Below, one piece after another: positions 38,271 through 62,782 of a stretch of 64,000 nucleotides of DNA. The notes below the pieces were generated by a model. It searched no databases. It saw nothing but the letters and a program-made list of their open reading frames with translations, and was not told the origin of the DNA. A program made the translations under genes and the position numbers. Origin of the DNA: a virus (Duplodnaviria > Caudoviricetes); the IMG/VR virus record IMGVR_UViG_2931680285_000001, positions 1 to 64,000 of that record. One strand, written 5' to 3'. Each line of letters begins with the position of its first letter. Position 1 is the first letter of the stretch.

Positions 38271-38609
38271 GTGAGCACACCACCTGAGTCCCCCTCGACA
38301 GATCGCCTCGTACGAGAAGCCGCCGGCCTGCTCCTCGCCGCGATCGGCACGCTGCTCGTCCTCTTCTCGCTCGGGCTCATTCACCCGGTCCTGGGCAGCA
38401 CCGCCGCGACGGCAGCCGCTCTCGGCCTCAGCTACTTCGTCCTGCACCCCCGTGGTCGAGGCGGGCGGATCGCGGCACGGGTGCTCACCGGGACCACATC
38501 TCTGGCCAGCGGCGTGACGGCCTTCCTGTATGTGCCGCCGCTCGCGTGGGTGGAGATCGGCGCGGCGGCTGTGGCCGTAGGAGCGTGGCTCGCCAGCGAG
38601 GGGGCCTGA
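38271..38609 (+). CDS. membrane protein preceding portal (4 hydrophobic segments)
   Basis: Hydrophobic helices; TGATG coupling to portal. Confidence 0.7.
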   Translation: MSTPPESPSTDRLVREAAGLLLAAIGTLLVLFSLGLIHPVLGSTAATAAALGLSYFVLHPRGRGGRIAARVLTGTTSLASGVTAFLYVPPLAWVEIGAAAVAVGAWLASEGA

Positions 38610-41056
38610 TGCCGCGCGAGTTCCTGCCTGGGCTTCGTCGCCTCCTCACCTCCCGCCCGGCGCAGGTGGAGGTGGAGGAGAAGTCCGCGGCGATCGGATC
38701 GTCGTACGTGTCGATGACGTACGCCGGTACGACGACGGTGTGGGGCACGGAGAACCGCGGGGCCGGATGGGACCTGGACCGGGTCATCCAAGAGGGCTAC
38801 GAACGGAGCGTCTGGACCTTCAAGGCCGTCGAGGCGATCTCCAAGCACCCCGGCGCCCTCAGCATCGAGATCGGACGCGGCGGCGATGACCGGCAGTTCG
38901 CCGAAACCCTCACGGACCATCCCCTGCTGCGCGTGCTGAACGTCCGGGCGAACCCTCTAGAGACGGCAGCCGTCTTCAAGAAGCGGCTCTCAGCGCAGTT
39001 CCTGCTCTCGAAGAAGGGCGCGTTCGTCGAGATCACCCGCTCGCGCGCGGGCATGATCACCCGGCTCGATCTGCTGCCGCCCAACCGGGTCGAGCCGATC
39101 CCTGACCCGCGCGGTGACTACCTCAGCCACTACCAGTTCACGACGTACGACGGCAGAATCCGCGAGCTCGATCCCAGCCGCGTCGTCTGGCTGCGCGACC
39201 CCCACCCGACCGACCCCTACTGCGGCGTCACCCCGCTCGAAGCCGCCGGTCTGTCCGTCGACCTCGACATCAAGGCCCGGCTCTACAACATCGCCTTCAT
39301 CGACAACGACGCGAGGCCGAGCGGGATCGTGGCCATCGATGTCGACGGGCTGGACCAGCGGGAGATCGACCGCATCCAACAGCGTCTCGCACCCGGTGCG
39401 CAGCAGGCGGGCGAGACCGTGGTCGTCGGCAGCGGGCCGGGCGGCCTCAACTACGTGGACACCAGCACCCGGCCCCGGGACATGAACTACGAGTCCCTGG
39501 CCAAGGCGGCAAAGGACGAGATCTTGAGCGCCTTCGGGGTGCCGGAGAGCATCGTCGGAAACGCGTCCGAGAGGACTTACGCGAACGCGGACCGCGAGGA
39601 GTGGAACTACTGGCAGCACACCGAGCTGCCGCACCTGGGCCTGATCGCGTCCGCCTTCGACTTCGATCTCGACGACGGCTGGTCGATCCGCTTCGACACT
39701 AGCGGGGTCGAGGCGTTGGAGTTCCCCAGGCGGCAGCGTCGGGCGGAGGCCCGGGAAGAGTGGAACGCCGGTTTGATCACGGCCGACGAGTACCGGGAGA
39801 TCGCCGGTCGCCGGCCGTTCAATGTGCCTCACACCCGCGCCCTGTGGATCAGCCCCCAGAAGGCGCCCGTGCCTGCGAGCGAGGCTGACGCTGCCGCGCT
39901 CGGCGTTGCGCAGGACCCCGCAGCCGGTGGTACGCCGGGCCTGCCTGGGGCTGGAGGTCCGCCTGCACGGCCGTCGTCTGCCGGTGCCGGGTCGGCGGCT
40001 GCCGCTGTCGCCGAGCCCACTGGCGCCTCCGGGTCGTCAGCTGCCGAGGACGTGGCGGCGGCAAGGAGCATGCTGGATGCGCCCGCCCTCGGCTCGGCCG
40101 CCGAAGACGTAGTCGCAGCGCGCGAGAAGCACCCGCTTCGGATCGACGGCGAGGCGTCAGCCGACGTGGCGGCGGCCCGCTCCACCGCCACCGCAACGAG
40201 CTCGGGGGACGCGGCGACGGATGTCGAGGCCGCGCGTACTCCGCTGGAGGGCAAGTCCGCCTCCGGCGGCGGCTACGAGGTCACGGACTCCGATTTCGAC
40301 ACGGCGGTCTCAGCGGTCACGGCCGTGCTCGCCGCGCTCCTGGCTCGCCAGGAAGGCGTGATCCGGGCCCGGCTGCGCTCTCCGAAGCTGCGCAAGCACA
40401 CAAGGTACTGGTCCCCGGACGGAGACACCGATCTGCGCGGAGGGACGGCGGCGATCGACGGTCAGCGCGTCGTCGGTGCTGCCCGCTGGGAGGAGGAGGT
40501 GGCCTCCACCCTTGCTCCGGTCCTTCAGCAGACCGCGTCGTCCACCGCCCAGAAGGTGACCAAGCACCTGACGGGCGCTGGCAGCGTGCCGGCCGGTGCC
40601 GCCGCCGCTGCTCTCACCGCGGCTGCTGTGTCCGGGCGCGCCGTCCTCGCCCTGCTCGCGGATCTGGCTGACGCCCTGGACGCCGCCCAGAACGAGACGA
40701 CGACCCTCGCCGATCTCGACGAGGTGATCACCAGCTTCTTCGCGGACCGCGCCGCGCCGTTCATCAGCCACATCGCCGAGTCCTCTGCGGTGACCACCGT
40801 GAACGGAGCTGCCGACGCTGCCGCCGAGAGCATCGGGCCATCAGTCCTGCGTACCTGGGTGACGAGGCGCGACGGCCGCGTACGGCCGCAGCACCAGCAG
40901 CTCGACGGAATCACCCTGCCCACCGGCACCGCGTTCGAGGTGGACCGTGTCCGCCTGCGCTACCCCGGCGACCCATTCGCCCCAGCTGACCTCACCGCCA
41001 ACTGCCGCTGCCGGCTGCGGTACCGCACCGGCCCTGCTCCGAGGGAGACCCCGTGA
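38609..41056 (+). CDS. phage portal protein fused to MuF/head-morphogenesis domain (815 aa)
   Basis: Portal motifs (LLRVL..N, G.TPL, N.ARPSG, ILSAFGVP, TYAN, GLITADEYR); C-terminal WVTRRDGRVRPQH...RYPGDP...NCRC. Confidence 0.85.
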   Translation: MPREFLPGLRRLLTSRPAQVEVEEKSAAIGSSYVSMTYAGTTTVWGTENRGAGWDLDRVIQEGYERSVWTFKAVEAISKHPGALSIEIGRGGDDRQFAETLTDHPLLRVLNVRANPLETAAVFKKRLSAQFLLSKKGAFVEITRSRAGMITRLDLLPPNRVEPIPDPRGDYLSHYQFTTYDGRIRELDPSRVVWLRDPHPTDPYCGVTPLEAAGLSVDLDIKARLYNIAFIDNDARPSGIVAIDVDGLDQREIDRIQQRLAPGAQQAGETVVVGSGPGGLNYVDTSTRPRDMNYESLAKAAKDEILSAFGVPESIVGNASERTYANADREEWNYWQHTELPHLGLIASAFDFDLDDGWSIRFDTSGVEALEFPRRQRRAEAREEWNAGLITADEYREIAGRRPFNVPHTRALWISPQKAPVPASEADAAALGVAQDPAAGGTPGLPGAGGPPARPSSAGAGSAAAAVAEPTGASGSSAAEDVAAARSMLDAPALGSAAEDVVAAREKHPLRIDGEASADVAAARSTATATSSGDAATDVEAARTPLEGKSASGGGYEVTDSDFDTAVSAVTAVLAALLARQEGVIRARLRSPKLRKHTRYWSPDGDTDLRGGTAAIDGQRVVGAARWEEEVASTLAPVLQQTASSTAQKVTKHLTGAGSVPAGAAAAALTAAAVSGRAVLALLADLADALDAAQNETTTLADLDEVITSFFADRAAPFISHIAESSAVTTVNGAADAAAESIGPSVLRTWVTRRDGRVRPQHQQLDGITLPTGTAFEVDRVRLRYPGDPFAPADLTANCRCRLRYRTGPAPRETP

Positions 41057-41310: not shown

Positions 41311-41339
41311 CGACGCTAGGCCGTCGCGCTCTGCATCGT
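41311..41339 (+). promoter_or_regulatory. Putative late promoter (leaderless giant gene)
   Basis: CGACGCTA-N15-CATCGT, 6 nt before ATG 41346. Confidence 0.6.
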
Positions 41340-41345
41340 CCGCGC

Positions 41346-44300
41346 ATGCTGATGCGCACCGCCCCGACCGACCTGAGTCGCACCCTTGAGGCCAAGTCCG
41401 TACGACGGCCGTGGAACTCTGCCCTCCACCCTCGGGACTCGAAGGGCAGGTTCATCGAAACGGGAGGAATTGCCCGCCTTTGGTCGGGCAATCTCGCCCG
41501 CGTCGTGCGCGCCCTGCCTCGCGACCGCGTCCTCGTCCAGGACCGTGCGTCCGACGGCACCTACACGGGACGGCGGCACAGCACCAGCGCCAAGTGGATC
41601 ACCATGGTGGCGCGCCCCGACGGCTCCGCGCCGACCGCGAACCAGAAGAAGGTCGAGCAGGAGGACGCCCGCCGGGGCGCCGACGACCGTCGCGGCCTCG
41701 GGCTGTCCCGCGACGACCACGGTGACCCGGACACGCCGGACGAGCCACACGACGTCGACGACGAGGGCAACGCGATCGGCGACGATGAGGGTGACGCGCC
41801 GGAGGACGACGACCAGGACGAGCCGGAAGACGGCACCCACGACGTCGACACGGACACCCTGCCCAACCGGCAGGCTCTGCCCGGCAGCCGTTTCACGGAC
41901 ACGGCCGCCGTACGTCGGCACTTCCTGGAGCTGGCCGAGCAGCCCGGCACCAACTCGGCGGCCCTGCGACGTCTCGCGGGCGATGAGGACTTGCAGATCA
42001 CGCCGACCGGCGGCCTGGTCACCACCCGCGACGACGCCAACGGCCGCTGGTACCTGACCGCGACCGGCACCGGCGGCTACCTCGACGTCGGCGACTTCTC
42101 CAGTCGCAGCGAGGCGGAGGCCGCCGCCGACTCCATCCACGAGAACGTCCGCAACGGCCACATCATGCCGGGCGAGTTCAACCAGCCCATCGACTTCTCC
42201 GACCCGAAGATCGGGACCTGGCTCCAGGACTGGCGCTCCACCAAGGGCGAGGGCGCCGAGCAGGCGATCCGCCGTGCGGTCAGCGACTTCCGCGCCTCTC
42301 GCCACAAGGAGGGTTCCGCCTCGCGTCCGAAGCCGGTACGCCAGGCCGCTCAGCCGCGAGGCCGGTTCACCACCCTCCAGCAGGCGCGGGACAACTGGGC
42401 CCGGCGTGCCGCAGACCTGCGGGCCTCCGGAAGCGAACAGGACCGGGCTGCCGCTCGTGCTCTCGACGAGCTGATCAAGGAGCCGCGGCTCAAGCTCGTC
42501 GGCGACGGACAGTTCGTCACCCACCGCGTGGACGGCGACTGGTACCTGCACGCGACCGGCACCGGACAGCAGATGGGGTGGTGGTTCGACAAGCAGGCGG
42601 ACGCGAAGGGCTTCGCCGACCACATCGTTGGCACGCTGAAGGGCAAGGACGGCAAGCCGCTCGACTTCTCCGACCCCGCCTTCGCCGACTACCGGGGCAC
42701 GTGGCGTTCGGACAAGGGCCGCGACTACCACCAGGAGTGGACCGCCGCTCGCGCCCTGTGGGACCAGGAGCACCCGCCCAAGCACAGCATCGCCACCGAC
42801 CGGCTCGCCGAGACGCTGCGACGCCCGCCGTTCGGCGACCAGCCGACCCCGGACGACAAGGACGAACAGTCCGCTCCGCCGTCCCCGGCACCGGGCAACG
42901 ACTCCGAGAACGACGTCCCGGGGACCGACTCCGGCCAGTCCGAACCTGGCCCGGCAGGCGAGCAGCCGGAGCCGGAGCAGGCCCCCGATCCCGAGGAGGC
43001 ACCGGAGGAGAGCGACGACCGGCCGGCAGGCGTGCCCGCCGACGCCGAGCCCGTCGACGGCGTGCCCGGGTACTGGGCAACGTCCTGGAACCCCGGCCCG
43101 GTCACCGTGTACGGCCCGGACGGCAGCCGGATCGCGTCTGTCGAAGGCGGCTACAGCGACCGGCACGCGACCGTCGACGGCGTACGGCTCCCCATCGGCG
43201 GCCACCTCACCATCGCTGACCAGATCATCGCCCGCCACCACCTGGCCACCACCGACCCGTCCCAGGCCGACCGCGTCCACCTCGCGTGGACCATGCACAA
43301 GACCAAGCGCGTGGTCGCCGTACGCGGCACCGTCAAGGACGATCCGACCGACGACCGCGCCGTCAACGCGGCCGGCAAGCTCGCCTGGTCCCCGGTGCAG
43401 AGCGCGCGGATCACCGGCACCCAGTGGAAGCCGGAGACCCGCGACCGCAAGGCCGCCGACATCCTGGCCGCCTTCGTCCGCCAGGGCCGCAACGTCCGCT
43501 TCACGGACGAGACCACCCGCAAGTCCGATGCTCCAGAGCCGTCGCAGCCGCTCGACGAGGAGGACAAGAAGCTCCGCGTCATGTCCGAGACGGACCTGCG
43601 CGAGCACCGCACCAACCTCCAGTTCCACGCCCAGACGGCACGGTCCCCGCGCAGCAAGCAGCAGGCCCTCAACTCCGTGCGCAAGGTGGAAGCGGAGCTG
43701 GAGCGCCGTCGCGCCGTCGCCGAGGACGGCGAGCAGAAGACCCCTCAGGAGCGTGCAGCGGCCCTGAGCGATGTCGACCTCGCCCAGGCCATCAGTAACT
43801 CCGAGCGCGAGCGCGGCACCTACGGCTCGCGTCGCGGCGACAAGCTCAACGATGACGAACGGGCGCTGTACGCGGACCGCCGCCGCCGCTCCACCGAGCG
43901 GATCTCGCGCGTCGCGGCCCCGCAGGACCTCGACGACGACGCCCTCACCTCGTACATCCAGGACCTGGACCGGCTGAAGCGAGCCCACGACCCGGGCGGT
44001 TCGACTCACGAGGAAGACGACCTTGCCCCCGAGCGCGACCTCTGGGACGACGTCTCTTCCCGGCTCGACGATGCCCTGAAGGAGCAGAGCGAGCGGCAGC
44101 TCCGCCAGATCGAGCAGCGCCCTCCCGTGCAGGACCTCGACGACGAAGCCCTGGAGGCGGAGGCCGCCAGGCTCCCGGTACGCCTGCCGAAGCTGGACGA
44201 GGAGCAGAACAAGATCCTCTCTGCCCGCCGCAGAGCGGTGTACGAGGAGCGTCAGAACAGGAAGGCGGGGGTCTACCGGCGCCGGCCCGAGCCCTCCGGC

Positions 44301-47300
44301 CTCGAAGACGGCGATCTCGTCAAGGAGTTCCGCGAGCTCCAGAAGAACCGCAACCTGACATCCGGAGCCGAGCGCGAGGCCCTGGAGGAGCGCCGGCGGG
44401 CCATCTTCGACGAGCAGAACCGTCGCGGTGCGAAGGGCCACGAGGAGACCGTGCGGCGTGCCGAGACCCGCGAAGACCCGCTGAACGCGCACTACAACAT
44501 CTCGGTCCGGGTCGACGGCAACTCTTACGGCGAGGTCTCGTACCACGAAACCGGCTCCACCTGGGCAGGCGGCCCCAAGGCCGGATGGAACGCGAAGACC
44601 GACCGGTACGGGGGCGGCCTGGGCTCCTTCCCGAGCATGGTCGAGGCCCTGGCCGCGCTCGTCGAGAACTACGACACCGACCCCAACACCGAGCCGGTCC
44701 GCCTGTACGGCCGGACCCACCAGGTATGGGTGCCGAAGATGTTCTTCGAGCTGTACCAGTCCTCCCGGCGCGCGGACTCCTTCCCGTCAGCGACCAAGGA
44801 ACGCCAGACCCTCTACGGCCGGTTCAAGGGGCACGGCTACGGATGGTCGGACCGCACCAATCCGATCACCGGGAAGATCGGCAAGGGCGCCGTCCTGGAG
44901 ATCCCTGAGGGACTGCTCGCCGAGTTCCAGCGGGTCACCGAGGAACTGTCCCGGGAAATGATGCTGCGGTCCACCGACCGCGAGCTGGACTCGTCGGACC
45001 GTTCCAAGGCCCGTACTCGACTGGCCGCGATCAACGCGGCGCTGCACGGCATCGACGCCGCGCGCACGAATGTACGAAAGGATGGCGGGGACGACGACCG
45101 CAAGGTCATCTCCGCCAAGGAGATCGAGGCGCAGCAGGCAGCCCTGCGCGCCGCACTGAGTACGGATGAGAGGGCTGAGGATGAGCATCTACAGCCAGGT
45201 GGCCAGGGACCACTGGACGAAGCATCTGCCCAGGGAACTGGCGCAGATGGCCGACCCGGAGAAGTTCTTCCTGAGCAAGGGCAGGGAGATCGAGACGGCG
45301 ATTCTGGTGGCCGAGGAGGCGCTGGAGAAGACCGTGCCGGCGGCGACGGAGTACGAGCAGCGGGCGGGTCAGCTCAGGCAGATCAGGGCGACCGCGACCG
45401 AGATGGTGCTGCGGGACCTGCTGCCGGAGCCCGAGCCGGAGACCGAGGAGCTGCCGACCCTCACGCCGGAGATGCGGGATCTGCTGGCGATGAAGGACGA
45501 GGTGTACGACATGTAGGCCGGTTCCGGCCGGACCCGGCCGACGCCGCGACCCGCGGGCCCGTTCAGCGTGCTGCCGCGAACGTCGAGGCGATCCGGGTCC
45601 TGAAGCGGCTGGAGCAGGAGAACCGTCCGGCCACCGAGCAGGAGAAGCGCACCCTCGCCCGCTGGAGCGGCTGGGGCTCGGTTCCGATCATGTTCGCGTC
45701 GGAGCCGAACGAGAAGGAGCCGCGCTACCAGCAGGGTGGCGCGCGCTTCGGGAAGTTCACGCAGGACCACGCCCGCTGGGCGGAGTACACCGACCTGCGG
45801 GCCATGCTCTCGAACGAGCTGACGCCGCTGGAGTGGCAGCAGGCTCGACGCGGCACGCTGTCCATGCACTACACGCCTCAGGGCATCGCCGAGGCCATGT
45901 GGGACGGCCTCAAGGCCCTCGGGTTCGAGCGCGGCGACGTTCTGGAGGCCGGGTCCGGGTCGGGCACGTTCTTCGGTGTCTCCCCGCAGGACGCCCGCCT
46001 CACGGGCGTCGAGCTCGATCCGACCACGGCACGGATCGCGAAGGCGATCTACCCGGACGTCAACGTCCTGAACGAGAACTTCGCCGAGACGGACGCCCCG
46101 GCCGGAACCTTCGACGCGTCCATCGGCAACGTGCCCTTCGCCGCTGTCCCCTTCGGCGATAAGCGCTACCCGTCCGAGTCCCTGCACAACGGCTTCGTCA
46201 CCAAGGAACTGGCACTGACCCGCCCCGGCGGCGTCACGCTCCTCATCACCTCGCGCCACACCCTGGACTCCAAGGGCGACAAGGCCCGCAAGCAGATCGC
46301 GAAGTACGGCGACCTCATTGGCGCCGTCCGCCTGCCGTCCGGCGTCTTCAGCGACGCCGGCACCAGCGTGGTCGCCGACGTCCTCGTCCTGCGTCGCCGT
46401 GCCGACGGCCAGGAGCCGGGAGACACCTCCTGGCTGAACGCGCCCGAGCGGAAGGTCGGGGACACCCGAGAGCACGTCAACGCCTACTTCGCTCAGCACC
46501 CTGAGCACATCCTGGGCGACCTCACCACCGAGTCGTCGCCGTACGGCCCGCGCCTGACCGTCAAGGGCGATCCGGGCAAGGCGGCCGACCAACTCCGCGA
46601 CGCCCTTCGCGACATCGCCGAGAAGGCCAAGGAGGACGGCCGCGGCTACGAGCCGCACCCCGACGGAGACGACCGCCTTCCCATCCACCTCCAGACCGCC
46701 CGCGAGAAGCACGCCAACGACTGGACCGGCCGCCTCTACGAAGGCGACGACGGCCAGCTCTACCAGCACGTCAACGGCGGCAACCCCGTCGTAGTCGAGC
46801 CGTCCGACGGCCAGGCCGACCAACTCCGGGCCCTGATGCAGCTCCGCGACGTCGCCGCCGAACTGCGTGTCCTGGACCGCAAGCGGGAGGAGGACGAGCG
46901 GGCCGAGAAGCTGCGTGCCCAGCTTCGCGACCTGCACACCTCGTACGTGCAGCAGTACGGGCCGCTGTCCAAGCCGGGCCAGTTCCGCAGCATGAAGACC
47001 GGCGTCCGAGAGGACGGCACGGAGGAGCGCACCCCGACCGCCTGGGGCTACTTCCGCTCCGACCCCGACGCCGGGTCGGTCCTCGCACTGGAGCGCTGGG
47101 ACGCGGACAAGCAGGAGCCGGTCCTCTCCCGCGTCTTCACCGAGCGGGCCGCCGCCCGTCGGCAGCCGCTCGACCAGACCGACGACCCGAAGACCGCCCT
47201 GTCCGCGGTCGTCGCCGCCACCGGCGAGGTCGACCTCGGCGAGATCGCCCGCCTGCTGAACACCGACCCGCAGGACGCCCTGCGGGCCCTGGGCACCGAG

Positions 47301-50300
47301 GTCTTCACCGACCCGGTCACCGGGCGCCTGGAGCTGGCCGGCGCCTACCTCTCCGGCCCGGTCCGCGACAAGCTCGCCGACGCCCGCCGCGCCGCCGAAC
47401 GCGATCCTGCGTTCCAGGTCAACGTCGCCGCGCTCGAAGCCGTCCAGCCCACTGACCGCACGATCGGCGAGTTCACGCCCGAGATGGGCGCGCACTGGAC
47501 GCCGCCCGAGCTGCTTCAGGGGTTCCTGCGCGAGTACCTGGGCGACAAGACGCTCCGAGTCGCCCACGACGACCGCTACGGCTGGATGCTCTACACCGGC
47601 CAGGTCCCGAAGGCCAACAACGTCCTGCACGGCGTCGCGGCCAACGAGGAGAAGGGGACCAAGGGCAAGGGTGCGGTCGACATCGCCCGCGCGATCCTCG
47701 GCCACGGCTCGCTGACGATCTACCGCGACGACAAGCGGCGGGACGTCGACGAAGAAACGTCCCGCCTGGTGCGGCAGAAGGCCGACCAGATGCGGTCGGA
47801 GTTCGCGAAGTACGCCACGGCCAACGCCGACCGCCTCACCCGCCTGACCAACTCCTACAACACGATCATGAACGGGCACGTCGTCCGTTCGTACGACGGC
47901 ATGAGCCCGTCCCTGGACGGCTTCACCCCGGACCGCGACCCGCACCCGTGGCAGCTGTCCGGCGCCGCCCGCATGCAGTTCGAGCGGTCGGTGATCCTCG
48001 CCCACGAAGTCGGCCTGGGCAAGACCTCCACCCTCGTCATGGGCACCCAGGCCCTCAAGGGCTCCGGACAGATCGAGAAGCCGTTCGCCGTCGTCCCCGA
48101 CCACCTCGCACAGCAGTGGTACGACGAGGCCCGCTACCTCTACCCCAACGCCGAGATCCACCTGATCACGTCGGCCGACCTCGCCGACGGCCGCCGCGAC
48201 AGCACCCTGGAGTGGCTCCGCGCCAACAAGCCGGACCTCGTCATCTTCACCGAACCCGCTTTCGGGTCGATCAAGATGAGCCCGGAGGCGCAGGAGGAGT
48301 ACGAGTTCCGCGAGCTGGAGGCTCTGCGAGAACAGCTCGACCGGCAGTACGAGGACGCCACCAACCCGAACCACCCGTTCATCGTCGCCAAGATCGAGCA
48401 GCGCATCGCGACGGTCCAGAACAAGATCAGCAAGAACGCCGCGCCCATGCGCACCCCCGGCGCCACGTACTGGGACGACCTCGGGTTCGACTACGCCGTC
48501 GTCGACGAAGCCCACCGCTACAAGGGCGTCGGCTTCCGCTCCCGTGAGGGCGGCGGCGACCCCGCGTCCATCCGGGGCGTCGACCTCCACCAGAAGCTGA
48601 CCGACCTGCACCGGCGGCGCGCCGGCCGCGCCACCGTCACCCTGGCCACCGGCACGCCGCTGTCGAACTCGATCACCGAGCAGTACACGATGCTCGCCCT
48701 GGCCGCCCCCTGGGTCCTCGACTCCTACAAGGCCGGTGCCCCCGACCTGTGGGCCGCCACCTTCGGCCGCAAGACCCTCCGCGTCGAGAACGCGCCCGAC
48801 GGCTCGGGCCTGCGGGTCGTCGAGCGGTTCAGCGAGTTCCACAACAGGCGCGCCATGAAGACCATGTGGGGCCTGGTCGCGGACACCAAGCGCGCCGACG
48901 ACGTCGGCATCCCCCGGCCCAAGATCAGGGGCGGGCAGCCGAACCTGGTCATGGTCGACCCGACCAAGGACCAGACCGCCCGGCTGAAGAAGCTGGTCGC
49001 CCGTGGCCGCGCGATCCACAACGGCGAGGTCGACCGCTCCCAGGACAACATGCTCGCCGTGTCCAACGAGGGCACATCCGTCGCCCTGGACCCGCGGCTC
49101 GTCGACGCCAAGGCCCCGGCCGGCAAGAAGCTCGCCGCCGTCGCCGCCCGCCACGTCGAGCGCTACCACCAGCACAAGGACCGGGTCTACAAGACCCACT
49201 ACGGCAGCACGGAGGACCACCCGGTCCCCGGCGCCCTCCAGATGATCTTCCTCAACGAGGGCGTCCCGGGCGGCAACAACCGAGGCGACTTCGACGCGTA
49301 CGCCGAACTGAAGCGACTCATGGTCCAGGGCGGCATACCCGCCGACAAGATCGCCTTCGTCCAGGACGCCAAGAAGTCCGGCAAGCCCGAGCACCTGGCC
49401 GAGCTCTTCCGCCGCGCCCGGGACGGCGAGGTCTCCGTCCTCATCGGCTCCAGCAGCGTCGCCGGCACCGGCATGAACGCGCAGAACCGCATGGTCTCCC
49501 TCACCCACGTGGACCTGGACTGGGGCGCAGCGCAGATGGAGCAGCGCAACGGCCGCATCCTGCGCTACGGCAACCAGAACGACGAGGTCGAGGTCGACAT
49601 CTTCGCGACCAAGGGCAGCCTCGACGGCTGGAAGGCCGGATTCGTCGCCTCCAAGGCGGAGGGCCTGGTCGACATCCAGCGCCCTGAGATGGCCGACAGC
49701 GACACCCGCGACACCGTCACCGAACTCGACGTCGACTACCCCGACTACGAGACGATGGAAGCGGAGATCGGCGGCAACCCCTACATGAGCCAGCTCATGA
49801 AGGCCCGCCGTCAGCTGCGTGACCTGGAGATCGACCAGCACAACGAGGCCGCCGAACGCGTACGGCGCGCCGAGGCACTGGCAGAGCTGGAGCAGGAGAC
49901 CGCCGACACCCGGGCCGGCATCACCCGCCGCGAGGCGGCGCTGCCCCGCATCCGCGACGTACGCGGGACCTTCAGCATGGCCATCGGCGGCATGCCCTAC
50001 ACGGAGCGCGCCGACGCGGCGGCGGCCCTGCACCGGCAGGTGACCACCCAGCTCCTGGACCACGCCCACGAGGGCGTGAGCCCGTGGAAGACCGTCGGCC
50101 AGCTCGGCGGCCTGGACGTCGCCGTGCGAACGGAACGGCGCGCGGACGGGAAGCTCGTCGCCCATGTCGGCTTCCCCGACCTCGCCCGTTCCAGCTTCGA
50201 GCGCACCCCGGACGACCTGAAGAAGCGCGGCGCCGGGTCGGGCATGATCACCCGGCTCGCCAACGCGTTGGAGAAGGCCCCCGCCCTCCAGGAGGCCGAC

Positions 50301-53300
50301 CGGCGGCGGCTGCCGGAACTCGACGAGCAGATAGCCCTGCTCCAGTCCGCACAGACCGCTGCCGACCTCACCCCGCAGATCGAGCACGCCCGTGCCCGCG
50401 CCAACCTGCTCGACGACATCGTGGGACGGATCGCCGACCTCGACAAGCTGCCGGAGATCGACGAGGACGACCTCGACAAGAAGCTCACCGAGACCCAGCG
50501 GCGCAAGATCGTCGAGGAGCGTCGTACGGCCCGTGTACCCCTCCAGGGTGCCGTCGGTGCTGCCGTCCTGACCCTGGAGGAGTTCGACAAGAAGTTCCCC
50601 GAACCCGAGCGCCCGGAGCGCCCCCGCGACCGGGGGCAGGAGCAGGTACGGCTTCCGGCCGACGAGGTCGCTCAGGTCCTCGACGCGATCCGCCCCGAGG
50701 AGGGTGGTGCCGGCGAAAAGCCGACCGCCCCCGGGGACTCGGACGAGGAATCCCCGCAGCCCCTCGCGGAAGATCTCTCGGAGGAGTCCCAGACGGCAGC
50801 GGGCAGCGGTCTCATCGCGGGCCGCTTCCAGTTCGACGAGCCCGTCACCGACCTCGACGGCCAAGGGTGGTACGTCGGCAGCGAGAACGACGACGGCACC
50901 GTGAACGTCTCCAACGGCCCGAGCAGCGAGACGTTCCGGCCGGAGGAGCTGACCAGCGCCCGCCAGGACGCCCCGTCTGCCCCGAACGTGCCGGAGATAG
51001 CGCCTGAAGGACCCGACGACACGGTCACGCTCGACCGCGACGATGTCGAGCAACAGCTCGAAGCCCTCCGCCCCGCAGGCGACCGCGCACCGTCCTCGAT
51101 GAGCGAGCAGGAGATCACCGACGAGATCGTCTCCCTGATGGAACGGGAGATGCTGGAAGGTGAGCTGACCGGCGCCGACCGCACGCGAATGGCCGTCCTG
51201 GAAGCGGAGAACGACCGCAGAGCCGGGCGCGCCCCGAAAGCTGAGCCCAAGAAGCCCACCCCCGACCCCGTCGATGACGGGGGCCTCTTCGACGTCGCCG
51301 CACCCGCCCCGCAGGAGCCGGCCGCCGCCGACCCGGACAACCCGCTCGACCAGCCCGACGATCTGTACGGCACGCCGGACATGTTCGCCGACCACGAGGG
51401 CCGGGACACGAGCCGCCTGCGCCCCGTGCAGATGCGCAGCCCGGAGAACCTGTCCGAGGGCGACCGGTACACCGACGCCGACGGTCGTACGCACACGGTG
51501 GCCGAACCGCCCAAGCGCACCGGCCGAGGCCGGGTTCGCATCGTGACGGAGGGCGGCGAGGAGCACTTCTACAGCAGGGATGCCGAGCTCCGGCTTCGCT
51601 ACCCCGACGAGGAGATCGACGACGACGCCCAGGACTCGAACAGCCGGGATGCGTCCGACGAACCCGCCGCCGACGACGCCCAGGGCGGCGCCCCGAACAG
51701 CGACGAGAGCGACGAGAGCGACGAGAGCGACGAGGACGAACGACAAGGCCACCGTCGCCGTGACGGCGACCCCGACGGTGCCGCACCGGCCGATGCCCCG
51801 GCCGGTGGGTCCGGCGGTCCTTCGCAGCCGGACGTCGACCAGGACGAGGAGGACGACAGCAAGAACGAGGAGGACGGCGCCGACTCCGCAGAGAACAACG
51901 AGGAGGACGACGAGCGGCGTCGCCGACGGCGTCGTGGTAACCGCCGGTCCGATGGCCGGGGTCCGAACGGGCCGGGTCTGCCGGGGCTTCCGGGCATCCC
52001 GCATCTGCCCGATGTCGACTCGCGTGCCCCCGAGGACGGTGGCACGGCTTCGGAAGGGCCATCCCCCCGCAGGGCGCCTCGCGACGTGCAGGGCCTGCGC
52101 GCAGCGTGGAGGCGCGGCGAGGGCCTGATCGCCGAGGAGAACACCCCGGAGCGGCGGGCATTCCTTGCCCAGCTCGCCGACAACCCCACGTTGTCGCTCT
52201 CCTCGGGAGGGGGGATCGCCACCTGGACCGACGACACCGCTCCCGATGGGATGCGACGCTGGCACTTCGCCCAGGCGCGCAACGGCGGCCGGTTCGGGGG
52301 GATCACCCTCACCGCTCGTACCGCTGACGAGGCTCGGGATCTCGCGGACCTCTTCGAGATCATCACCAGTGCCGGCGGACAGCAGATCGACTGGCACCAG
52401 CCGCTCACGACGAGTGCCGTCGCCGGGTGGAGCGACCGCGACGGGCGGACGCTGCCGGAGGCCCTGCGGCACCTGCGCGACCTGTACCAGGACGGCGACG
52501 AGCAGGAAGCGGGACTGGTCAAGCCCCTGATCACGCTGCCGGAGGACCTGACCGACTGGACCGACGAAGACCTCGCCGATGCGTGGGGAGCGGGCCTGTC
52601 CCCGGCCGACCAGCAGCGCGTCACCGCGGAGATGGACCGGCGAGACGACGCCGACCAGCGTGTCCGTGACGCCCTCCCGGAGACTCCGGCCGCCGACGCT
52701 GACGAAGTGCGTCGCCGCGGTGAGGCGATGGACGCGGCGCTCGGGTTCTCTGGCGCCGACGCCACCCGCCGTCCGCTGACGCGCGAGGAGCGGATGCAGC
52801 AGGAGTTCGCGGACTGGGACGAGGCCCGCTACCAGGCCGCGATCGAGGCCACCAACGGCTACTTCTACAGCAAGAACAGCCGTCGTCTGCCGCGCGTGAA
52901 CGAGCGCGATCTGTTCTCCGGGGGCTCGCTCTCCAGGTTCGGTCGCTGGCGTGAGTACGCGAGCGAGGAGCTGATCGACTGGTACGACGCCAACGGAGGC
53001 CGCGTCACGTACAACGCCTTCAAGGCCCAGCGGCGCGCCCACGAGAAGATCGAGCGGGAGCAGTACGAGGAGCAGCGGCGCAACGCGAGTCCCATCCCCG
53101 AAACCTCGCCGGCTTCGTCCAGCCCTTCTCCGGCCGAGGGGCCGCGCGCGTCCGACGCTGACACCAGCAGCCAGATCGATGTCGACGACATCAGCTTGGC
53201 GTCGGCTTCTCCGGGCCGGGAGAGCGAGGAGGAAGGTGCCGCGCGCTTCGGCGGCCCCGAGCAGGTGCGGGCCTTCGTCGAGCGCGCCCAGATACGTGAG

Positions 53301-56300
53301 GGCGGCGGCGATGGCGTGTTCCAGGTGTGGATGGATGGCCGCAAGATCGGCCACGTCCGCCTCGTCGGCGGGAGCGCGGCCAAGGATTCCACCTGGGACA
53401 GCAGCCCCTCTCTCGTCCTTGGTGACGGTGGCATCACCCGTGCCGCGTCGAGGGACTTGGCCGTCGCTGCGCTCGTCGTGCGGGCTCTGCGTACTCCGGT
53501 CAGCGCTACCGACCCGAACGGGGACATCTGGGCGACCGTCAGGATGGATCTCGCCGGGCACTATCCGGAGCTTCCGGAGCTGCCCGCGCGGCTGGCCAAG
53601 GACCCGGCAGTGCGGGAGCGTTACGAGGGGATCGTCCAGCTCGTCGCGAACTTCCGCACCAGCGAGTTGGTCAGCGGCGACCTGCGCCAGGACATCGACC
53701 ACGCCAAGGGCGAGTTCGAATGGCTGAGGGACGTCTTGTCCACGCTTCCGGCCAAGCAGCAGAACCGTGACGTGCTCAGGGATCTGGACCGGCGCGTTCT
53801 CCTGGCTTCATGGCTCCGTGAGAGTCTGCCTCCCGAGGACCGCGATGAGGCGGGCCGCGCGCCCGACGGCCCCGGGGAGCCGGGCACCTCCCCGAGTAGC
53901 ACGGACTTCCCCGGAGAGACTACGGGCACTTCGCCGACGGACTCTGACGCCCCTGCCGGCGACATCGGCGAGCAGCGCCACCCGTCCGCTGACAGGACAG
54001 GTCGCAGCCGTCCCGAAGCGGAGCAGGGAACCACGCCCGAAGCGGCGCGCGAGGAGAGCGGTCAGGACGCGCGTGCCCGCCAGGACGACGAGGCCGAGGA
54101 TAGGACGGGGGGCTCGGAAGCGAAGCCCGCCGCCGATCCCGTGTCGAAGCCTGACGAGACCGAGGACCCGGGGGCCCGGCCCGAGCCGAGCGTCGAGCCG
54201 GAGCCGGTCGGTGGTCAGCCCGCTCATTGGGCCAGCATCGACCACCTGGCCCCAGGCGACATGGCTCGTATCGACGGGACCACCCGGCGCGGTCGTGCCA
54301 CCACGCTCGCCGGGTACGTGCTCGACTATCCGGAGCGGGTCACTGTGACCCGCCGGGGCCGCACCGAGGAGATGTGGCGCATCCGGATCGGCGAGTCCCC
54401 GGACAGCCTTTCCGGCTCCCGCAGTACCGTCTACACGCCGCTCACTGCCACGGCTGCCCGCGCCGAGGCGCCCGAGTCGTCCGCGCCGGGTACCCCAGTG
54501 AGCGGCGCCCAGGGCGAGGTCGCCAGCGGCGATCTTCCGGACCGTATCGCCACCGACTCCACCGGGGCGGGTCTCTTCCCCGGCAGCCACGTAACCGGCG
54601 CCGATGGACGCGACGGCACGGTCACGGGCGTCACCGATACCACCGCCAATGTCCGGTGGTCTGACGGCGACACCGATACGGGCGTCGCACCGGCGTCCCT
54701 GACCGCTGACGACGCGGACGACCGCCGCCCCGCCGGTTGGACCTCTACCGGCCAGCGGATTCGTCCGGGTCACCTCGTCGCTGACGACGGCGCGCTCCTC
54801 GGCCCCGTGGACGAGGCCGACGGAGATCGCATCACGGTCACCACCGCTGACGGCACGGTCACCCGCGATGCCTCGCGCCTGAGCGTGGTCGGCGAAGTCC
54901 GCGACGAGACCCCGCAAGAGGCGCCGGTCACAAGCGTCACCCCGCACACGGCTGGGGACACCTCCAAGGGCGACGTCATCGTCCTCGACCTCGACGGCTC
55001 CCTGATCACGGTGGAAGTCCGGGACGCGGACCGGGACGGCGACCGGGTCACCCTCGACTACGTCGACATCGCGACGGGCGAGCTCGGCGGTATCGAGATG
55101 GACGCCGCCACCGTCATCTCGAAGGCCGAAGGCCCCGACGGCAGCACCCCGGCATTCAGCAACACCGTGCCGGAGGCCGAGGGCGACTTGACCGTGCACG
55201 AGCCGCCCGCCGTCCTCGACCCCGTCGCCGGTCCGACCGTCGATCCGGACCTCACGCCGGCAGACCGAGACGTGATCGCCGACCACGGCTCCGCGCCGGA
55301 GGACGACCCCGACGCGCAGCAGGCCGTCGCCCGTATCGGGGCCGATCTGCCTGTGACGGACACCCAGGCCAGCGCGCTTGCCGCCCAGCTCCGGGCCAAC
55401 GGCAACCCCGCTACCCGAGACGGACGGGCGGCGCTGCGCGCCGCTGACCACCTGGACCCGGACAACGCTCCGGAAGGACTCGACCGTCCCCGGCCGTCCA
55501 CCGCCGCCCAGGTCGGCGAAGGCGACGTCATCGCAATACCCGACGAGCGTCGCGACAACGAGGTCCGCACCTACCGCGTCCTCGACGTCGAGGAGGCTCC
55601 CGGCGGCATGCGGAGTCTCTTGCTGGAGGACGAGGACCGGCAGTGGAAGCGTCGCATGGTCCCCGCCAGCATGCCCGTGTGGCAGTTGCCGGAGCCCACC
55701 CGCGCCGACGACAGCACCACCCCGGCCGCTACAGCACCGGAGACCCCTGCTCCGCGCGAGCCGAACCCCCCGCTGGCGTCTGTACGCCGCCAGATCATCG
55801 CCGAGCACGGCCGCATGATGGCCCTCCGCATCGTCGACGAGGCGGTGGCCGGCACGGAGCAGCCCGGGAGCGTCCACGCACTGCGCGAGCAGATCTCGCT
55901 TCGGCTCACGCCGGACGCTCTTCGCGATGCCCGCGAGCAGGCCCGCCGAGAAGCCGGCGCCGCGCTGGACGCCGCCGGGATCACGGGCCGGGACCGAGTT
56001 TCAGCTCAGCAGGCCCTTCGCCGTGCGCGGGACAAGGCTCACGACCGGACCGTCCGCGCCGCGCTCCGCACCATCAACGATCTCGAACCCCTCCCCGGTG
56101 AGCCTGACGAGGACCTGGCGCAGCGGGTCGCAGGTCTCCTCCGCCTCATCCCCGTCCCCGACGAGCCCGCGCCCGTCCGGCGCCGCAGCGCCCCGTCCGC
56201 GCCCGGCACCCGCGCCCAGGGCGGTGGGTCTTCGGAGGCGACGGGGCACGCCGATGACGCCGTGACGTCGCTGCTCCAGCACCTTCAGGACGGCGGCGTT

Positions 56301-59295: not shown

Positions 59296-59324
59296 GGACA
59301 GTAACCAGGCCGGCACTGCACGGT
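59296..59324 (+). promoter_or_regulatory. Putative late promoter (protease)
   Basis: GGACAGTA-N15-CACGGT. Confidence 0.55.
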
Positions 59325-59364
59325 CCGCGGCGGCCATTCGTCCAGCCGCCGAAGGAACACCACT

Positions 59365-61293: not shown

Positions 61294-61477
61294 CGCGATC
61301 CAGCTCCACGGTCCCTCGAACCCTCCACTGAAAGGAGTTTCCGCAGGTCAGACCCTTTCGACGCGACATTAGGGGCCTCCTCTCTCTCCAATACCCGGCG
61401 TTGTCGGGTCGTCCCGGTGCTGGCCGGGCGAGCGACGCACGTCAACCGCCCCCCAGCACGTGGAGAGAGCAGCCGAG

Positions 61478-62782
61478 ATGGCTGAGAGCAAGTCCCTGAT
61501 CAACAACCTCCGCCAGCAGCTCGCCGAGAAGTCGGCGGAGGCCGAACGAATCAGCCGCACCTTCAAGGTCGAGGACAACGGCGGCTTCGTCGTTTCGACC
61601 GAGCAGGCCACGGCCTTCAAGAAGATCTCCAACGAGGCAATGGAGCTCAAGCAGCTCCTCGCCGACGCGGAGGGTATGAGCGAGGTGAAGCAGTACCTCG
61701 ACGAGCCCGACGGCCCGTCCTCCGCCGGGCAGTTCTACGGCCAGCAGCCCGCGCACGGCGGCATGGAGGGCAAGAGCCTCGGTGACCTGTTCGTCGAGAG
61801 CGACGCGTACAAGAACGCGGCCCAGGCCGGCTTCCGTGACCGCCCGTATGTGAGGGCGGAGATGGAGGGGAAGTCGATCTTCAGCCTGTCTGGCGGCACC
61901 GTCACGCACCAGACGCTCGGGTCCGCGCAGAACCTCGGGATCGCCGAGCGCGAGTACCGCAAGATGCACATTCGGGATCTCTTCCCGAAGAGCTCCACCA
62001 AGCAGTCCGTCCTCTACGGAGCCCGCGAGACCGGGTGGACCAACAACGCCAAGCAGGTGAAGGAACGTTACGGCGCCGACGGCTCCAGCCCGGCGACCGG
62101 AGCGGACACCGACACCTGGGGCCGCGCACCGCGATCGAAGCTGGCCCTAGTGCCTGTCATGTACCCGATCAGCGAAATTGCCCATCTGCTCGACGCGCAT
62201 AAGAATATTCTTTCCGACGAGCCGCGACTGAAGACATTCATTAACTCTCGAATGGTTGAGGGTGTGAAGTATCAGGAGGACTGGGACCTCCTGCACTCTG
62301 TCGGTGACGGCCAGTCCCTGACGGGCATCTTCAACACGCCCGGGGTCCAGCAGTACCGAGGGCTCGCGACCGACAAGTACAGCGTGCAGATACGCCGCAG
62401 CATCACCAAGGCGCTGCTAGCCGAGTACGACCCCACGGGCATCGTCCTGTCTCCGACGATGTGGGAGCACGTGGAGGTGGAGGAGGACGACACGGGCGCT
62501 TTCCGCGTCGCCCTCCAGATCGCGGTCGGCGCGACCAAGCGCGTCTGGAGGCTGGACGTCGTCGAGACGACCGCGATGGCCGACGAGCAGTTCCTCGTGG
62601 GCGCCTTCGGTCTCGGCGCCCAGCTCCACGACCGGGAGTCCGTCTCTGTCACGGTCAGCACCGAGAACGGCGAGAACGTGGAGAAGGGCTTGGTGACGTT
62701 CCGAGCGGACGAGCGGGTCGCGCTCGAAATCCCTCGCCCGGAGAGCTTCGTGATCGGCACCTGGACCGCTCCCGCCGGCTGA
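61478..62782 (+). CDS. HK97-fold major capsid protein with N-terminal delta domain (434 aa)
   Basis: Coiled N-terminus, IRDLFP, Y.RETG, IAH...ILSDEP.L..FIN..M, GDG..LTGIFN, V.FRA.ER.AL...RPESFV. Confidence 0.9.
   Translation: MAESKSLINNLRQQLAEKSAEAERISRTFKVEDNGGFVVSTEQATAFKKISNEAMELKQLLADAEGMSEVKQYLDEPDGPSSAGQFYGQQPAHGGMEGKSLGDLFVESDAYKNAAQAGFRDRPYVRAEMEGKSIFSLSGGTVTHQTLGSAQNLGIAEREYRKMHIRDLFPKSSTKQSVLYGARETGWTNNAKQVKERYGADGSSPATGADTDTWGRAPRSKLALVPVMYPISEIAHLLDAHKNILSDEPRLKTFINSRMVEGVKYQEDWDLLHSVGDGQSLTGIFNTPGVQQYRGLATDKYSVQIRRSITKALLAEYDPTGIVLSPTMWEHVEVEEDDTGAFRVALQIAVGATKRVWRLDVVETTAMADEQFLVGAFGLGAQLHDRESVSVTVSTENGENVEKGLVTFRADERVALEIPRPESFVIGTWTAPAG

What the first reader, a model, noticed from the sequence alone, without database searches (positions are those of the whole stretch)
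45181..45516. A complete gene nested in the +1 frame inside the 16.3-kb giant ORF
Seen: for 336 nt the GC3 codon bias switches from the giant frame to the +1 frame, which has its own RBS, ATG and TAG and encodes a protein-like helical 111-mer; the giant frame stays open but reads as G/D/R/A low-complexity filler (DEHLQPGGQG...GVRHVG). The nested stop is followed at once by RFRP...ANVEAIRVLKRL...LARWSGWG, the usual beginning of DarB-like methyltransferase/helicases. From memory the small protein resembles TnpV-like proteins found directly upstream of such helicase genes in conjugative elements. Inference: a two-gene cassette (small partner + MTase/helicase) was captured inside a virion polyprotein, with selection keeping both frames open, so the partner (chaperone, inhibitor or regulator) is made separately. 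Standard annotators would miss it.
Basis: partly seen in the sequence, partly recalled or inferred. Interest (0 to 1): 0.85.

Follow-up and report, generated by a model that had tools for sequence, protein, structure and literature searches.

The report
Hidden gene nested inside giant gene
A small TnpV-like gene is written in a second reading frame inside the linker of a giant phage DNA-methylase/helicase gene, and relatives from Streptomyces to Listeria keep both frames open although annotation lists only the big gene.

Summary
Over 45181-45516, GC3 of the giant frame falls from 0.90 to 0.38 and the +1 frame rises to 0.96. This is the only strong frame switch in the 16.3-kb ORF.

The +1 ORF (B, 111 aa) has a GAGGG Shine-Dalgarno, an ATG and a TAG. 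It folds confidently as a helical protein (pLDDT 89.8). It belongs to a large family of small proteins distantly related to Pfam TnpV.

The arrangement is not chance. Of 32 distinct homologues followed by the methylase/helicase module, 31 have no stop in the host frame across B. The exception has a separate start for the module. All 7 stand-alone paralogues carry 1-5 stops.

The same +1 nesting occurs in a 47%-GC actinobacterium, a Brucella plasmid, Listeria pLI100 and Campylobacter pTet. Chance openness there ranges from 0.03 to under 1 in 20,000.

The nesting predates the fusion into the giant protein. Expression of both products and B's function remain untested. First-stage notes of this scan flagged the same pattern in two other genomes.

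The parts
41346..57656 (+). Giant host ORF (5436 aa, frame 0): N-terminal part of unknown family, linker, methylase plus SNF2 helicase module, long C-terminal part of unknown family
   Evidence: ORF list. GC3 0.88 overall. Pfam/NCBIfam find SNF2, Helicase_C and ResIII, and weak Erm-like methyltransferase and DrmD-like hits, only in 45516-51000.
41346..45179 (+). Part A of the giant protein; no family found. Its last ~50 residues (..DDDRKVISAKEIEAQQAALRAAL..) are conserved in related giants.
   Evidence: No Pfam/NCBIfam hit. Host-frame alignment upstream of B.
45170..45174 (+). Shine-Dalgarno (GAGGG) for the nested gene, 6 nt before its ATG, lying inside giant coding sequence
   Evidence: Sequence. 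SD-like motif within -18..-4 in 41 of 43 distinct homologues. AAGGAG is present in the Campylobacter and Pseudomonas loci.
45181..45516 (+). Nested gene B: 111-aa acidic (pI 4.6) helical TnpV-like protein, in the +1 frame of the giant, with TAG stop at 45514-45516
   Evidence: GC3 0.96. Homologues in 22 actinobacterial plasmids and 25 of 401 Streptomycetaceae genomes. 1297 cluster representatives at E<=1e-3. AF2 pLDDT 89.8. dN/dS below 1 in all 12 pairs.
45180..45518 (+). Host-frame reading of the same bases: a 113-residue G/A/D/R-rich low-complexity linker between part A and the methylase module
   Evidence: Translation and composition. In 12 of 12 pairs it is less conserved than B over the same bases. 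It is stop-free in 31 of 32 module-linked loci.
45519..49625 (+). Methylase/SNF2-helicase module (C). It starts with RFRP (45519-45530), then ANVEAIRVLKRL and WSGWG (45663-45677). No canonical start codon lies between B's stop and these motifs.
   Evidence: No frame-0 start near B's stop in the window (row L017).
38546..41056 (+). Context: phage portal protein with a C-terminal Mu F-like domain, directly upstream of the giant gene
   Evidence: Pfam Phage_portal 4.8e-50, Phage_Mu_F 1.5e-5.
59305..62782 (+). Context: prohead protease (S78, fused to a LigT-like domain) and major capsid protein, downstream of the giant gene
   Evidence: Pfam hits.

Best explanation
Bases 45181-45516 encode two proteins on the same strand.

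Ribosomes that start at the giant gene's ATG (41346) read this stretch in frame 0. There it gives a roughly 113-residue, glycine/alanine/aspartate/arginine-rich, presumably disordered linker. The linker joins the N-terminal part of the giant head-module protein to its DNA-methylase/SNF2-helicase module.

Other ribosomes start at an internal Shine-Dalgarno (GAGGG, 45170) and ATG (45181) in the +1 frame. They make a separate 111-aa acidic helical protein of the TnpV-like family and stop at TAG 45516.

The methylase/helicase module has no start codon of its own here. It can only be made by reading through the overlap, which is why selection keeps frame 0 free of stops. This nested unit (short host-frame leader, overlap carrying B, methylase/helicase) is old. 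It exists as a stand-alone gene and as a block inside giant polyvalent proteins of plasmids and phages in several phyla.

Shown: both ORFs, their conservation, stop avoidance, and purifying selection on B.

Inferred: that both products are made. Also inferred, with about even odds, is that B acts on or with the methylase/helicase in the donor cell. A small acidic helical chaperone or inhibitor is the sort of role I have in mind; the analogy to VirE1/VirE2 is recalled, not tested.
For: (1) Codon bias. GC3 is 0.96 in the +1 frame and 0.38 in the giant frame over exactly this span. It is the only strong switch in 16.3 kb.

(2) B is a real protein family. It has 22 plasmid records, 25 of 401 Streptomycetaceae genomes and 1297 representatives at E<=1e-3, all 88-345 aa among the 150 listed. 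AF2 gives pLDDT 89.8. dN/dS is 0.06-0.94 in 12 pairs, and B-frame identity exceeds host-frame identity in 12 of 12.

(3) Own initiation signals. An SD-like motif is present in 41 of 43 and an ATG or GTG start in 43 of 43. In-frame stops lie 18-42 nt upstream of B's start in 6 loci plus the window.

(4) Stop avoidance. Of 32 distinct module-linked B sequences, 31 have 0 stops in the host frame. The one exception (L024, 8 stops) has an ATG for the module overlapping B's TGA. All 7 stand-alone 171-173-aa paralogues have 1-5 stops. Chance openness per locus is 0.11-0.51 with giant-gene codon usage and 0.24-0.73 with B-set usage.

(5) Lower-GC relatives in the same +1 relation:
- 47%-GC actinobacterial locus L044: P=0.0002, with 6.5 stops expected.
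- Brucella plasmid L046, inside an annotated 'PLxRFG domain-containing protein' CDS: P=0.028.
- Listeria innocua pLI100, 37% GC: host frame open in 0 of 20,000 resamplings (8 stops expected); the nested frame opens with P=0.0066.
- Campylobacter jejuni pTet, 28% GC: host frame open in 0 of 20,000 (15.7 stops expected); the nested frame opens with P=0.00015.

(6) No separate start for the module. 20 of 32 loci have no ATG/GTG/TTG in the host frame from 30 nt before B's stop to the ANxxA motif. In 11 of the other 12 the candidates lie 42-93 nt downstream, inside conserved sequence. Short, non-giant genes have an ATG with SD in the host frame 52 nt (L037, L038, L041) or 85 nt (L039, L040) upstream of B.

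(7) Twelve of the 16 plasmid regions fetched carry one annotated giant CDS across B, always with B in +1.
Against: No expression or protein data were obtained, so neither product has been seen.

In high-GC DNA the host frame would be open by chance in 11-73% of resamplings per locus. Related loci are not independent. The strongest statistics therefore rest on four lower-GC loci (L044, L046, L054, L055).

Homology of the Campylobacter and Pseudomonas nested ORFs to B is not established. hhalign gives E 0.16 and 0.81, hmmsearch gives 0.68 or nothing, and Pfam gives no TnpV hit. The Pseudomonas case is statistically weak (P 0.014 and 0.27).

The module can work un-nested. L024 has its own ATG. 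In Enterococcus faecalis pUK045_1 the B-like domain is part of a separate upstream 281-aa protein overlapping the methylase gene by 13 nt. Agrobacterium pTi and a Vibrio IncC-type plasmid have the module without any B.

Twelve of 32 loci do have some canonical start downstream of B's stop.

Ribosomes reading the host frame should hinder initiation at B's internal site. How much B is made is unknown.
Confidence: 0.85

Rival explanations
1. Termination-reinitiation. B is translated from its own start. Ribosomes that stop at B's TAG restart nearby to make the methylase/helicase as a separate protein. On this view the giant ORF is only formally continuous and its openness across B is incidental.
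For: L024 shows exactly such coupling, with TGATG at B's stop. Enterococcus pUK045_1 has a 13-nt overlap between a B-containing upstream gene and the methylase gene. B's stop lies only 3-30 nt before the conserved FRP motif in most loci.
Against: 20 of 32 loci have no canonical start from 30 nt before B's stop to the ANxxA motif; the host-frame codon over the stop is GTA in most. This model gives no reason for host-frame stop avoidance across B, yet 31 of 32 are open. So are the low-GC loci, where 6-16 stops are expected. The one locus that does have a restart codon has 8 stops.
Confidence: 0.07
2. Annotation artefact of GC-rich DNA. A, B and C are three ordinary adjacent genes, and the 'giant ORF' is a shadow frame that happens to be open.
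For: Very long chance ORFs are common here. Antisense ORFs of 2777 aa and 1134 aa overlap the giant. The host frame's first codon position is B's GC-rich third position, so stops are rare. Chance openness for this locus is 17-36%.
Against: Part A has no stop and the module has no start anywhere near B. GC3 of frame 0 is 0.90 right up to B and 0.89 right after it. The arrangement recurs in 31 of 32 loci, including 28-47% GC plasmids where chance is below 0.001. Stand-alone paralogues are interrupted in 7 of 7.
Confidence: 0.03
3. Programmed ribosomal frameshifting. B is not a separate protein. It is entered by a +1 shift from part A (giving an A-B product) and/or left by a -1 shift into the module (giving B-C or A-B-C).
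For: The module frame is B's frame minus 1 in every linked locus. That is the geometry used by many -1 frameshift systems (general knowledge).
Against: No shared slippery heptamer precedes B's stop; the last codons differ among loci. B-frame stops lie 18-42 nt upstream of B's start in 6 loci plus the window. An SD and a start codon are conserved in 41 and 43 of 43. Frameshifting would remove the need for an open host frame across B.
Confidence: 0.03
4. Sequencing or assembly error: two compensating indels in this assembly create the apparent frame switch.
For: None specific. It is the generic worry for a frame switch of this kind.
Against: The same layout is present in 12 independently deposited plasmid records with annotated giant CDSs and in many other genomes. 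B has its own start and stop exactly at the switch points.
Confidence: 0.01

Closest known systems
Rz/Rz1 of phage lambda (spanin genes; recalled, not searched here)
   Same: A complete small gene with its own start lies wholly inside a larger gene, on the same strand, in the +1 frame. Both products are needed and work together.
   Different: Rz is a small gene and both products are lysis proteins. Here the host is a 5436-aa multi-domain protein. The host-frame reading is a low-complexity linker, and the nested product is a TnpV-like cytoplasmic helical protein. The arrangement spans several phyla.
comS inside srfAB of Bacillus subtilis (recalled, not searched here)
   Same: A small out-of-frame ORF with its own ribosome-binding site lies embedded in a giant multi-domain gene and is missed by size-based annotation.
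   Different: comS is 46 aa, confined to close Bacillus relatives, and overlaps an enzymatic domain. B is about 100 aa, belongs to a family with 1297 cluster representatives, and overlaps a linker.
TnpV (Pfam PF14198; named after Tn4451)
   Same: Size, helical content and sequence profile agree. TnpV is the top Pfam family for 7 of 33 and 24 of 76 members. Nested relatives in Listeria pLI100 and L044 score 29.0 and 27.4 bits against a 27-bit cut-off. The nearest ESM-Atlas clusters are auto-named TnpV family.
   Different: The window protein itself does not reach any Pfam threshold. TnpV is described as a separate transposon gene 'postulated to be involved in excision' by likeness to lambda Xis (passage in PMC3158075). 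I found no mention of nesting.
Polyvalent proteins of phages and conjugative elements (Iyer et al. 2017, PMC5512222), including P1 DarB-like methylase/helicases
   Same: The host gene is a giant multi-domain protein with methylase and SNF2 helicase, encoded in a phage head module here and next to conjugation genes on plasmids.
   Different: A term search of that paper's main text finds 0 occurrences of TnpV, overlapping or frameshift. A second gene in another frame is not part of the published concept as far as I could see. Its supplements could not be opened.

Membership tests
Same-strand nested (overprinted) gene pair | A complete ORF with its own start signal lies inside another ORF in a different frame | tested here: met
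   45181-45516 lies in +1 of 41346-57656, with GAGGG 6 nt before the ATG. SD-like motif in 41 of 43, start codon in 43 of 43.
Same-strand nested (overprinted) gene pair | Both frames are kept open across relatives more often than chance allows | tested here: met
   31 of 32 linked loci are open, against 7 of 7 stand-alone paralogues interrupted. In the low-GC loci P ranges from 0.028 down to 0 of 20,000.
Same-strand nested (overprinted) gene pair | The nested product is under purifying selection | tested here: met
   dN/dS is below 1 in 12 of 12 pairs (0.06-0.94). B identity exceeds host-frame identity in 12 of 12. dS in B is lower than in the adjacent module in 10 of 12.
Same-strand nested (overprinted) gene pair | Both proteins are detected in cells | not testable with these tools
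   Needs Ribo-seq or proteomics.
Pfam TnpV (PF14198) | The protein scores at or above the gathering cut-off (27 bits) | tested here: not met
   The window protein has no Pfam hit even at E<=1.
Pfam TnpV (PF14198) | Linked to the family through relatives | tested here: met
   TnpV is the commonest family among members: 7 of 33 (best 7.9e-6) and 24 of 76 (best 8.6e-6). Nested ORFs of L055 and L044 score 29.0 and 27.4 bits. L055 matches the B profile at hhalign E 8.8e-5 and hmmsearch 2e-7.
Polyvalent protein / DarB-like methylase-helicase | Methyltransferase and SF2/SNF2 helicase domains in one large polypeptide of a phage or plasmid | tested here: met
   SNF2-rel_dom, Helicase_C and ResIII pass the Pfam cut-offs. 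Erm-like methyltransferase and DrmD-like hits are weak. The gene lies between the portal and the prohead protease/capsid genes.
Polyvalent protein / DarB-like methylase-helicase | Direct homology to P1 DarB, and packaging into virions | not tested
   No DarB sequence was compared. Packaging needs experiments.
Programmed -1/+1 ribosomal frameshift site | A conserved slippery sequence at the frame junction and no independent start for the downstream frame | tested here: not met
   The junction sequences differ among loci and no shared heptamer is present. B has a conserved SD and start.

The most novel reading that the evidence does not exclude
The TnpV-like gene and the linker of the methylase/SNF2-helicase gene form an ancient, obligatory dual-coding unit. 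It is spread across at least four bacterial phyla on plasmids, ICE-like elements and phages, which would make it one of the most widely conserved same-strand nested genes in prokaryotes. On this reading the overlap is functional, not just tolerated. It lets a two-protein system (enzyme plus small acidic chaperone or inhibitor made only in the donor cell) be moved and fused as one open reading frame into polyvalent proteins. Ribosome traffic in the host frame sets the ratio of B to enzyme.
Probability: 0.35. Interest if true: 0.88.

Novelty: new variant of a known kind. Interest (0 to 1): 0.78.

Why it matters
Long same-strand overlapping genes that are conserved beyond close relatives are very rare in bacteria and their elements, and their reality is often disputed. 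Here the comparative evidence is unusually clean. There is an internal control: stand-alone paralogues and an un-nested locus lose the second frame. There are also low-GC relatives where chance is negligible.

The finding means that a family of small proteins with 1297 cluster representatives is hidden inside annotated methylase/helicase genes. Examples seen here include Campylobacter pTet and a Listeria plasmid. The methylase/helicase module itself occurs on 1395 plasmid records.

It gives the uncharacterised TnpV-like family a fixed partner to test. It also suggests a rule for how multi-domain 'polyvalent' proteins can absorb two-gene systems: the partner gene is carried in another frame of a disordered linker.

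Tried and rejected
Structure and family searches for B's function led nowhere.
- Foldseek against PDB: best E 4.3.
- VIA-align wide search: best Z 6.2, generic helical pairs.
- PDB sequence profile: best E 0.39.
- PHROGs: nothing useful.
- NCBIfam: nothing.
- tblastn of B against the phage collection: no match.

The Pfam TnpV model searched over 401 Actinomycetota genomes gave 2 sub-threshold places. One of them was a false hit inside rpoC (L045).

tblastn with the Brucella nested protein found only itself. With the L044 protein it found only the Brucella plasmid.

Sequencing runs: no RNA holder listed. I did not lay reads.

Literature. Eight searches and term look-ups in three papers found no description of a TnpV-like gene nested in a methylase/helicase gene. 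For PMC5512222, PMC3158075 and PMC9815147 I saw passages only. For the other papers I saw only search listings and starts of abstracts. The domain tables of PMC5512222 might bear on this and were not seen.

I considered and dropped the idea that B is a mobile insertion such as an intron or an IS remnant. It has no repeats or ends, and it is conserved in place next to the module.
Full report
WHAT IS THERE. The window is 70% G+C. A 16,311-nt ORF (41346-57656, +, 5436 aa) lies between a portal/Mu-F gene (38546-41056) and the prohead-protease and major-capsid genes (59305-62782). It therefore sits in a phage head module. Pfam and NCBIfam recognise only an SNF2/SF2 helicase and a weak Erm-like methyltransferase signal, both in the stretch 45516-51000.

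Inside the giant ORF, in its +1 frame, is an ORF with ATG at 45181 and TAG at 45514-45516. GAGGG lies 6 nt upstream of the ATG, and an in-frame TGA lies at 45157.

Third-position G+C tells which frame is the adapted one. The giant frame has 0.90 before and 0.89 after this span but 0.38 inside it, while the +1 frame has 0.96 inside. A sliding scan of the whole giant ORF finds no other strong switch. Over the overlap the giant frame reads 113 residues that are 80% G/A/D/R/E/P. Directly after the nested stop it reads GRFRP...ANVEAIRVLKRL...LARWSGWG.

THE NESTED PRODUCT IS A REAL PROTEIN FAMILY. I call the nested product B.
- tblastn finds B in 22 actinobacterial plasmid records and in no phage record.
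- A profile finds it in 25 of 401 Streptomycetaceae genomes sampled, counting the window's own.
- It is found in 6 of 401 genomes sampled across the phylum.
- A HMMER search of 1.84 billion cluster representatives gives 1297 proteins at E<=0.001 and 754 at E<=1e-10. All of the 150 listed are 88-345 aa.
- AlphaFold2 with 33 homologues gives a confident helical model: pLDDT 89.8, with helices at 3-15, 17-22, 26-49, 58-80 and 96-109.
- B is acidic, with pI 4.6.

The window protein itself hits no Pfam family. TnpV (PF14198) is nevertheless by far the commonest family among its relatives: 7 of 33 (best E 7.9e-6) and 24 of 76 (best 8.6e-6). The nearest ESM-Atlas clusters are auto-named TnpV family. 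No solved structure resembles the model.

In 12 pairs of relatives dN/dS of B is 0.06-0.94. The B-frame translation is always more conserved than the host-frame translation of the same bases (12 of 12). dS is lower in B than in the adjacent module in 10 of 12 pairs, as expected where synonymous sites carry a second message.

THE SAME LAYOUT IN RELATIVES. I fetched 16 of the 22 plasmid hits. I left out H6 and H17 (judged duplicates of H5 and H16 from identical scores, not fetched) and H19-H22.

In 12 of the 16, B lies inside one annotated giant CDS of 10-37 kb, always in its +1 frame. One locus is cut by an IS5.

Three loci are annotated as a small gene plus an 'SNF2-related' or other gene: Ruania, Nocardioides pNOCA01 and Pimelobacter. 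In these, too, the module's frame is open from upstream of B. The conserved FRP...ANxxAI start of the module begins before the annotated start codon in the Nocardioides and Pimelobacter records.

I pooled these loci with 27 genomic places. Scripts then gave 43 distinct B sequences.
- 32 are followed in frame -1 by the module without a stop. Of these, 31 have no stop in that frame across B.
- The exception, L024, has 8 stops and an ATG for the module overlapping B's TGA.
- Seven stand-alone paralogues of 171-173 aa that are not followed by the module all carry 1-5 stops.
- The remaining four unlinked sequences have 0 stops. They are the IS-cut locus, a contig end, a broken module and the first of a tandem pair.

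Resampling synonymous codons gives chance openness of 0.11-0.51 per locus with the giant gene's codon usage. With the usage of the B set itself, which is conservative, it is 0.24-0.73. The loci fall into roughly 14 groups by my reading of the alignments and pairwise identities (no clustering was run), so the joint result is far from chance. Kinship nevertheless prevents an exact figure.

WHERE THE MODULE STARTS. In 20 of the 32 linked loci there is no ATG/GTG/TTG in the host frame from 30 nt before B's stop to the ANxxA motif. In 11 of the other 12 the candidates lie 42-93 nt past the stop, inside conserved sequence.

Short, non-giant versions show the true start. L037, L038 and L041 have ATG with a GGGGGAG-type SD 52 nt upstream of B's GTG. 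L039 and L040 have one 85 nt upstream. B is therefore nested in the 5' part of the methylase/helicase gene even where there is no giant. The giant genes carry this unit as an internal block, preceded by varying N-terminal parts.

The overlap was not produced by capture into a polyprotein. An already-nested unit was fused.

LOWER-GC RELATIVES REMOVE THE GC-RICHNESS CAVEAT.
- 47%-GC actinobacterial genome (L044). A 107-aa ORF that scores 27.4 bits on Pfam TnpV (cut-off 27) lies in +1 inside an ORF that runs into the methylase N-terminus. Chance openness of the host frame is 0.0002, with 6.5 stops expected.
- Brucella pseudintermedia plasmid (57% GC). A B-like ORF lies in +1 inside an annotated 'PLxRFG domain-containing protein' CDS. 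P = 0.028.
- Listeria innocua pLI100 (37% GC). A 114-aa ORF lies in +1 inside the annotated methyltransferase CDS. It scores 29.0 bits on TnpV and matches the B profile at 2e-7 and at hhalign 8.8e-5. The host frame is open in 0 of 20,000 resamplings (8 stops expected). The nested frame is open in 0.66%.
- Campylobacter jejuni 81-176 pTet (28% GC). A 159-aa ORF with AAGGAG 6 nt before its ATG lies in +1 just before the methylase N-terminus. The host frame is open in 0 of 20,000 resamplings (15.7 stops expected) and the nested frame in 0.015%. Its homology to B is only motif-level (E 0.16-0.68), so I count it as the same layout, not as a proven homologue. In another pTet-type record the listed annotation shows one SNF2-related CDS and no small gene. 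The table used may be incomplete.
- Pseudomonas putida plasmid. It has a similar +1 ORF with AAGGAG, but the statistics are weak (P 0.014 and 0.27) and homology is not shown.
- Further nested cases occur in two more actinobacterial families: L051, and L052 with an overlap of about 760 nt.

Against universality:
- In Enterococcus faecalis pUK045_1 the B-like domain sits in a separate 281-aa upstream protein whose gene overlaps the methylase gene by 13 nt.
- Agrobacterium pTi and a Vibrio plasmid have the module with no B.

MECHANISM. The simplest reading that fits all of this is true dual coding. Frame 0 is translated from the giant's start through the overlap, as a linker, into the methylase/helicase. 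B is translated separately from its internal SD and ATG.

Termination-reinitiation after B, programmed frameshifting, a shadow-ORF artefact and sequencing error each fail on one or more of these points:
- the lack of start codons near B's stop;
- the conserved SD and start of B;
- stop avoidance in the host frame;
- recurrence in many independent records (see Rival explanations).

What B does is not shown. It is a small acidic helical protein that stays next to the module in every linked locus. This fits a dedicated partner made in the producing cell, such as a chaperone for packaging or transfer, or an inhibitor. I give this about even odds. The published idea for TnpV, an Xis-like excision role, rests on weak likeness (passage in PMC3158075) and does not explain the linkage seen here.

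WHAT IS KNOWN. Nested +1 genes are known from lambda Rz/Rz1, and out-of-frame embedding in a giant gene from comS in srfAB. Both are recalled from general knowledge. The polyvalent-protein paper (PMC5512222) does not contain the words TnpV, overlapping or frameshift in its main text. Eight library searches found no description of this arrangement. Supplements could not be read. A preprint abstract notes that overlapping regions tend to encode disorder (10.1101/229690, seen in the listing). That agrees with the linker-like host reading here.

First-stage notes of this scan record the same pattern in two other genomes and for this stretch in another window. They are unchecked notes and not independent evidence.

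VERDICT. It generalises well beyond the window: a TnpV-like gene is carried in the +1 frame of the linker that precedes the methylase/SNF2-helicase module, in phage, plasmid and chromosomal elements of several phyla, and the annotations seen here list only the large gene. Direct evidence of translation and the function of B are missing.

Noticed in passing
L006:1342-1504, L010:5793-6000, L008:~5880-5900; also L054-L056, L058, L059 (host frame near the module's N-terminus): A short host-frame motif of the type (Q)xxLDLF/W recurs, for example QSLDLW, QLAFDLW, ALDLF, ELDLFAF, FTIDLFG and QMGLFFG. It lies upstream of B in some loci and between B and the methylase in others. In B-less genes it lies at the very N-terminus. 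From memory it resembles the beta-clamp-binding motif QL[SD]LF; this was not tested.
   Followed up: partly
B stop codons in 32 module-linked loci (window 45514-45516): B ends with TAG in 26, TAA in 3 and TGA in 3. From memory, TGA is the usual stop in GC-rich actinobacteria. The host-frame codon over a TAG/TAA stop is GTA. With TGA it becomes GTG or CTG, and the one un-nested locus uses TGA. Shared ancestry may explain part of this.
   Followed up: partly
window 59305-61293: The prohead serine protease (Peptidase_S78) is fused to a 2'-5' RNA ligase / LigT-like phosphoesterase domain.
   Followed up: no
window 38546-41056: The portal protein carries a C-terminal Mu F-like domain. The giant gene follows 290 nt downstream.
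   Followed up: no
L025:888-1211 and 1501-1773 (same place as L042): One Streptomycetaceae genome (G076) has two B-like genes in tandem. Only the second is followed by the methylase module.
   Followed up: partly
L023, L026-L031: Seven Streptomycetaceae genomes carry stand-alone 171-173-aa paralogues of B with a conserved C-terminal extension and no adjacent methylase/helicase. They served as the natural control for stop avoidance.
   Followed up: partly
window 45369-53702 (-) and 41316-44720 (-): Antisense ORFs of 2777 aa and 1134 aa overlap the giant gene. They are typical chance shadow frames of GC-rich coding DNA and a reminder that openness alone means little here.
   Followed up: no
literature: PMC9815147 (passages): In Streptococcus suis ICEs, integrative mobilizable elements that carry a tnpV gene insert specifically into the ICE's snf2 gene. 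This is another TnpV-SNF2 link, of a different kind. Whether it relates to the nesting is unknown.
   Followed up: no
L052 (genome G508): A much longer B-like ORF (the B-frame ORF is open for 324 codons; the protein is at least ~270 aa from the first Met) overlaps the host frame for about 760 nt before the methylase N-terminus, and both frames are open.
   Followed up: partly
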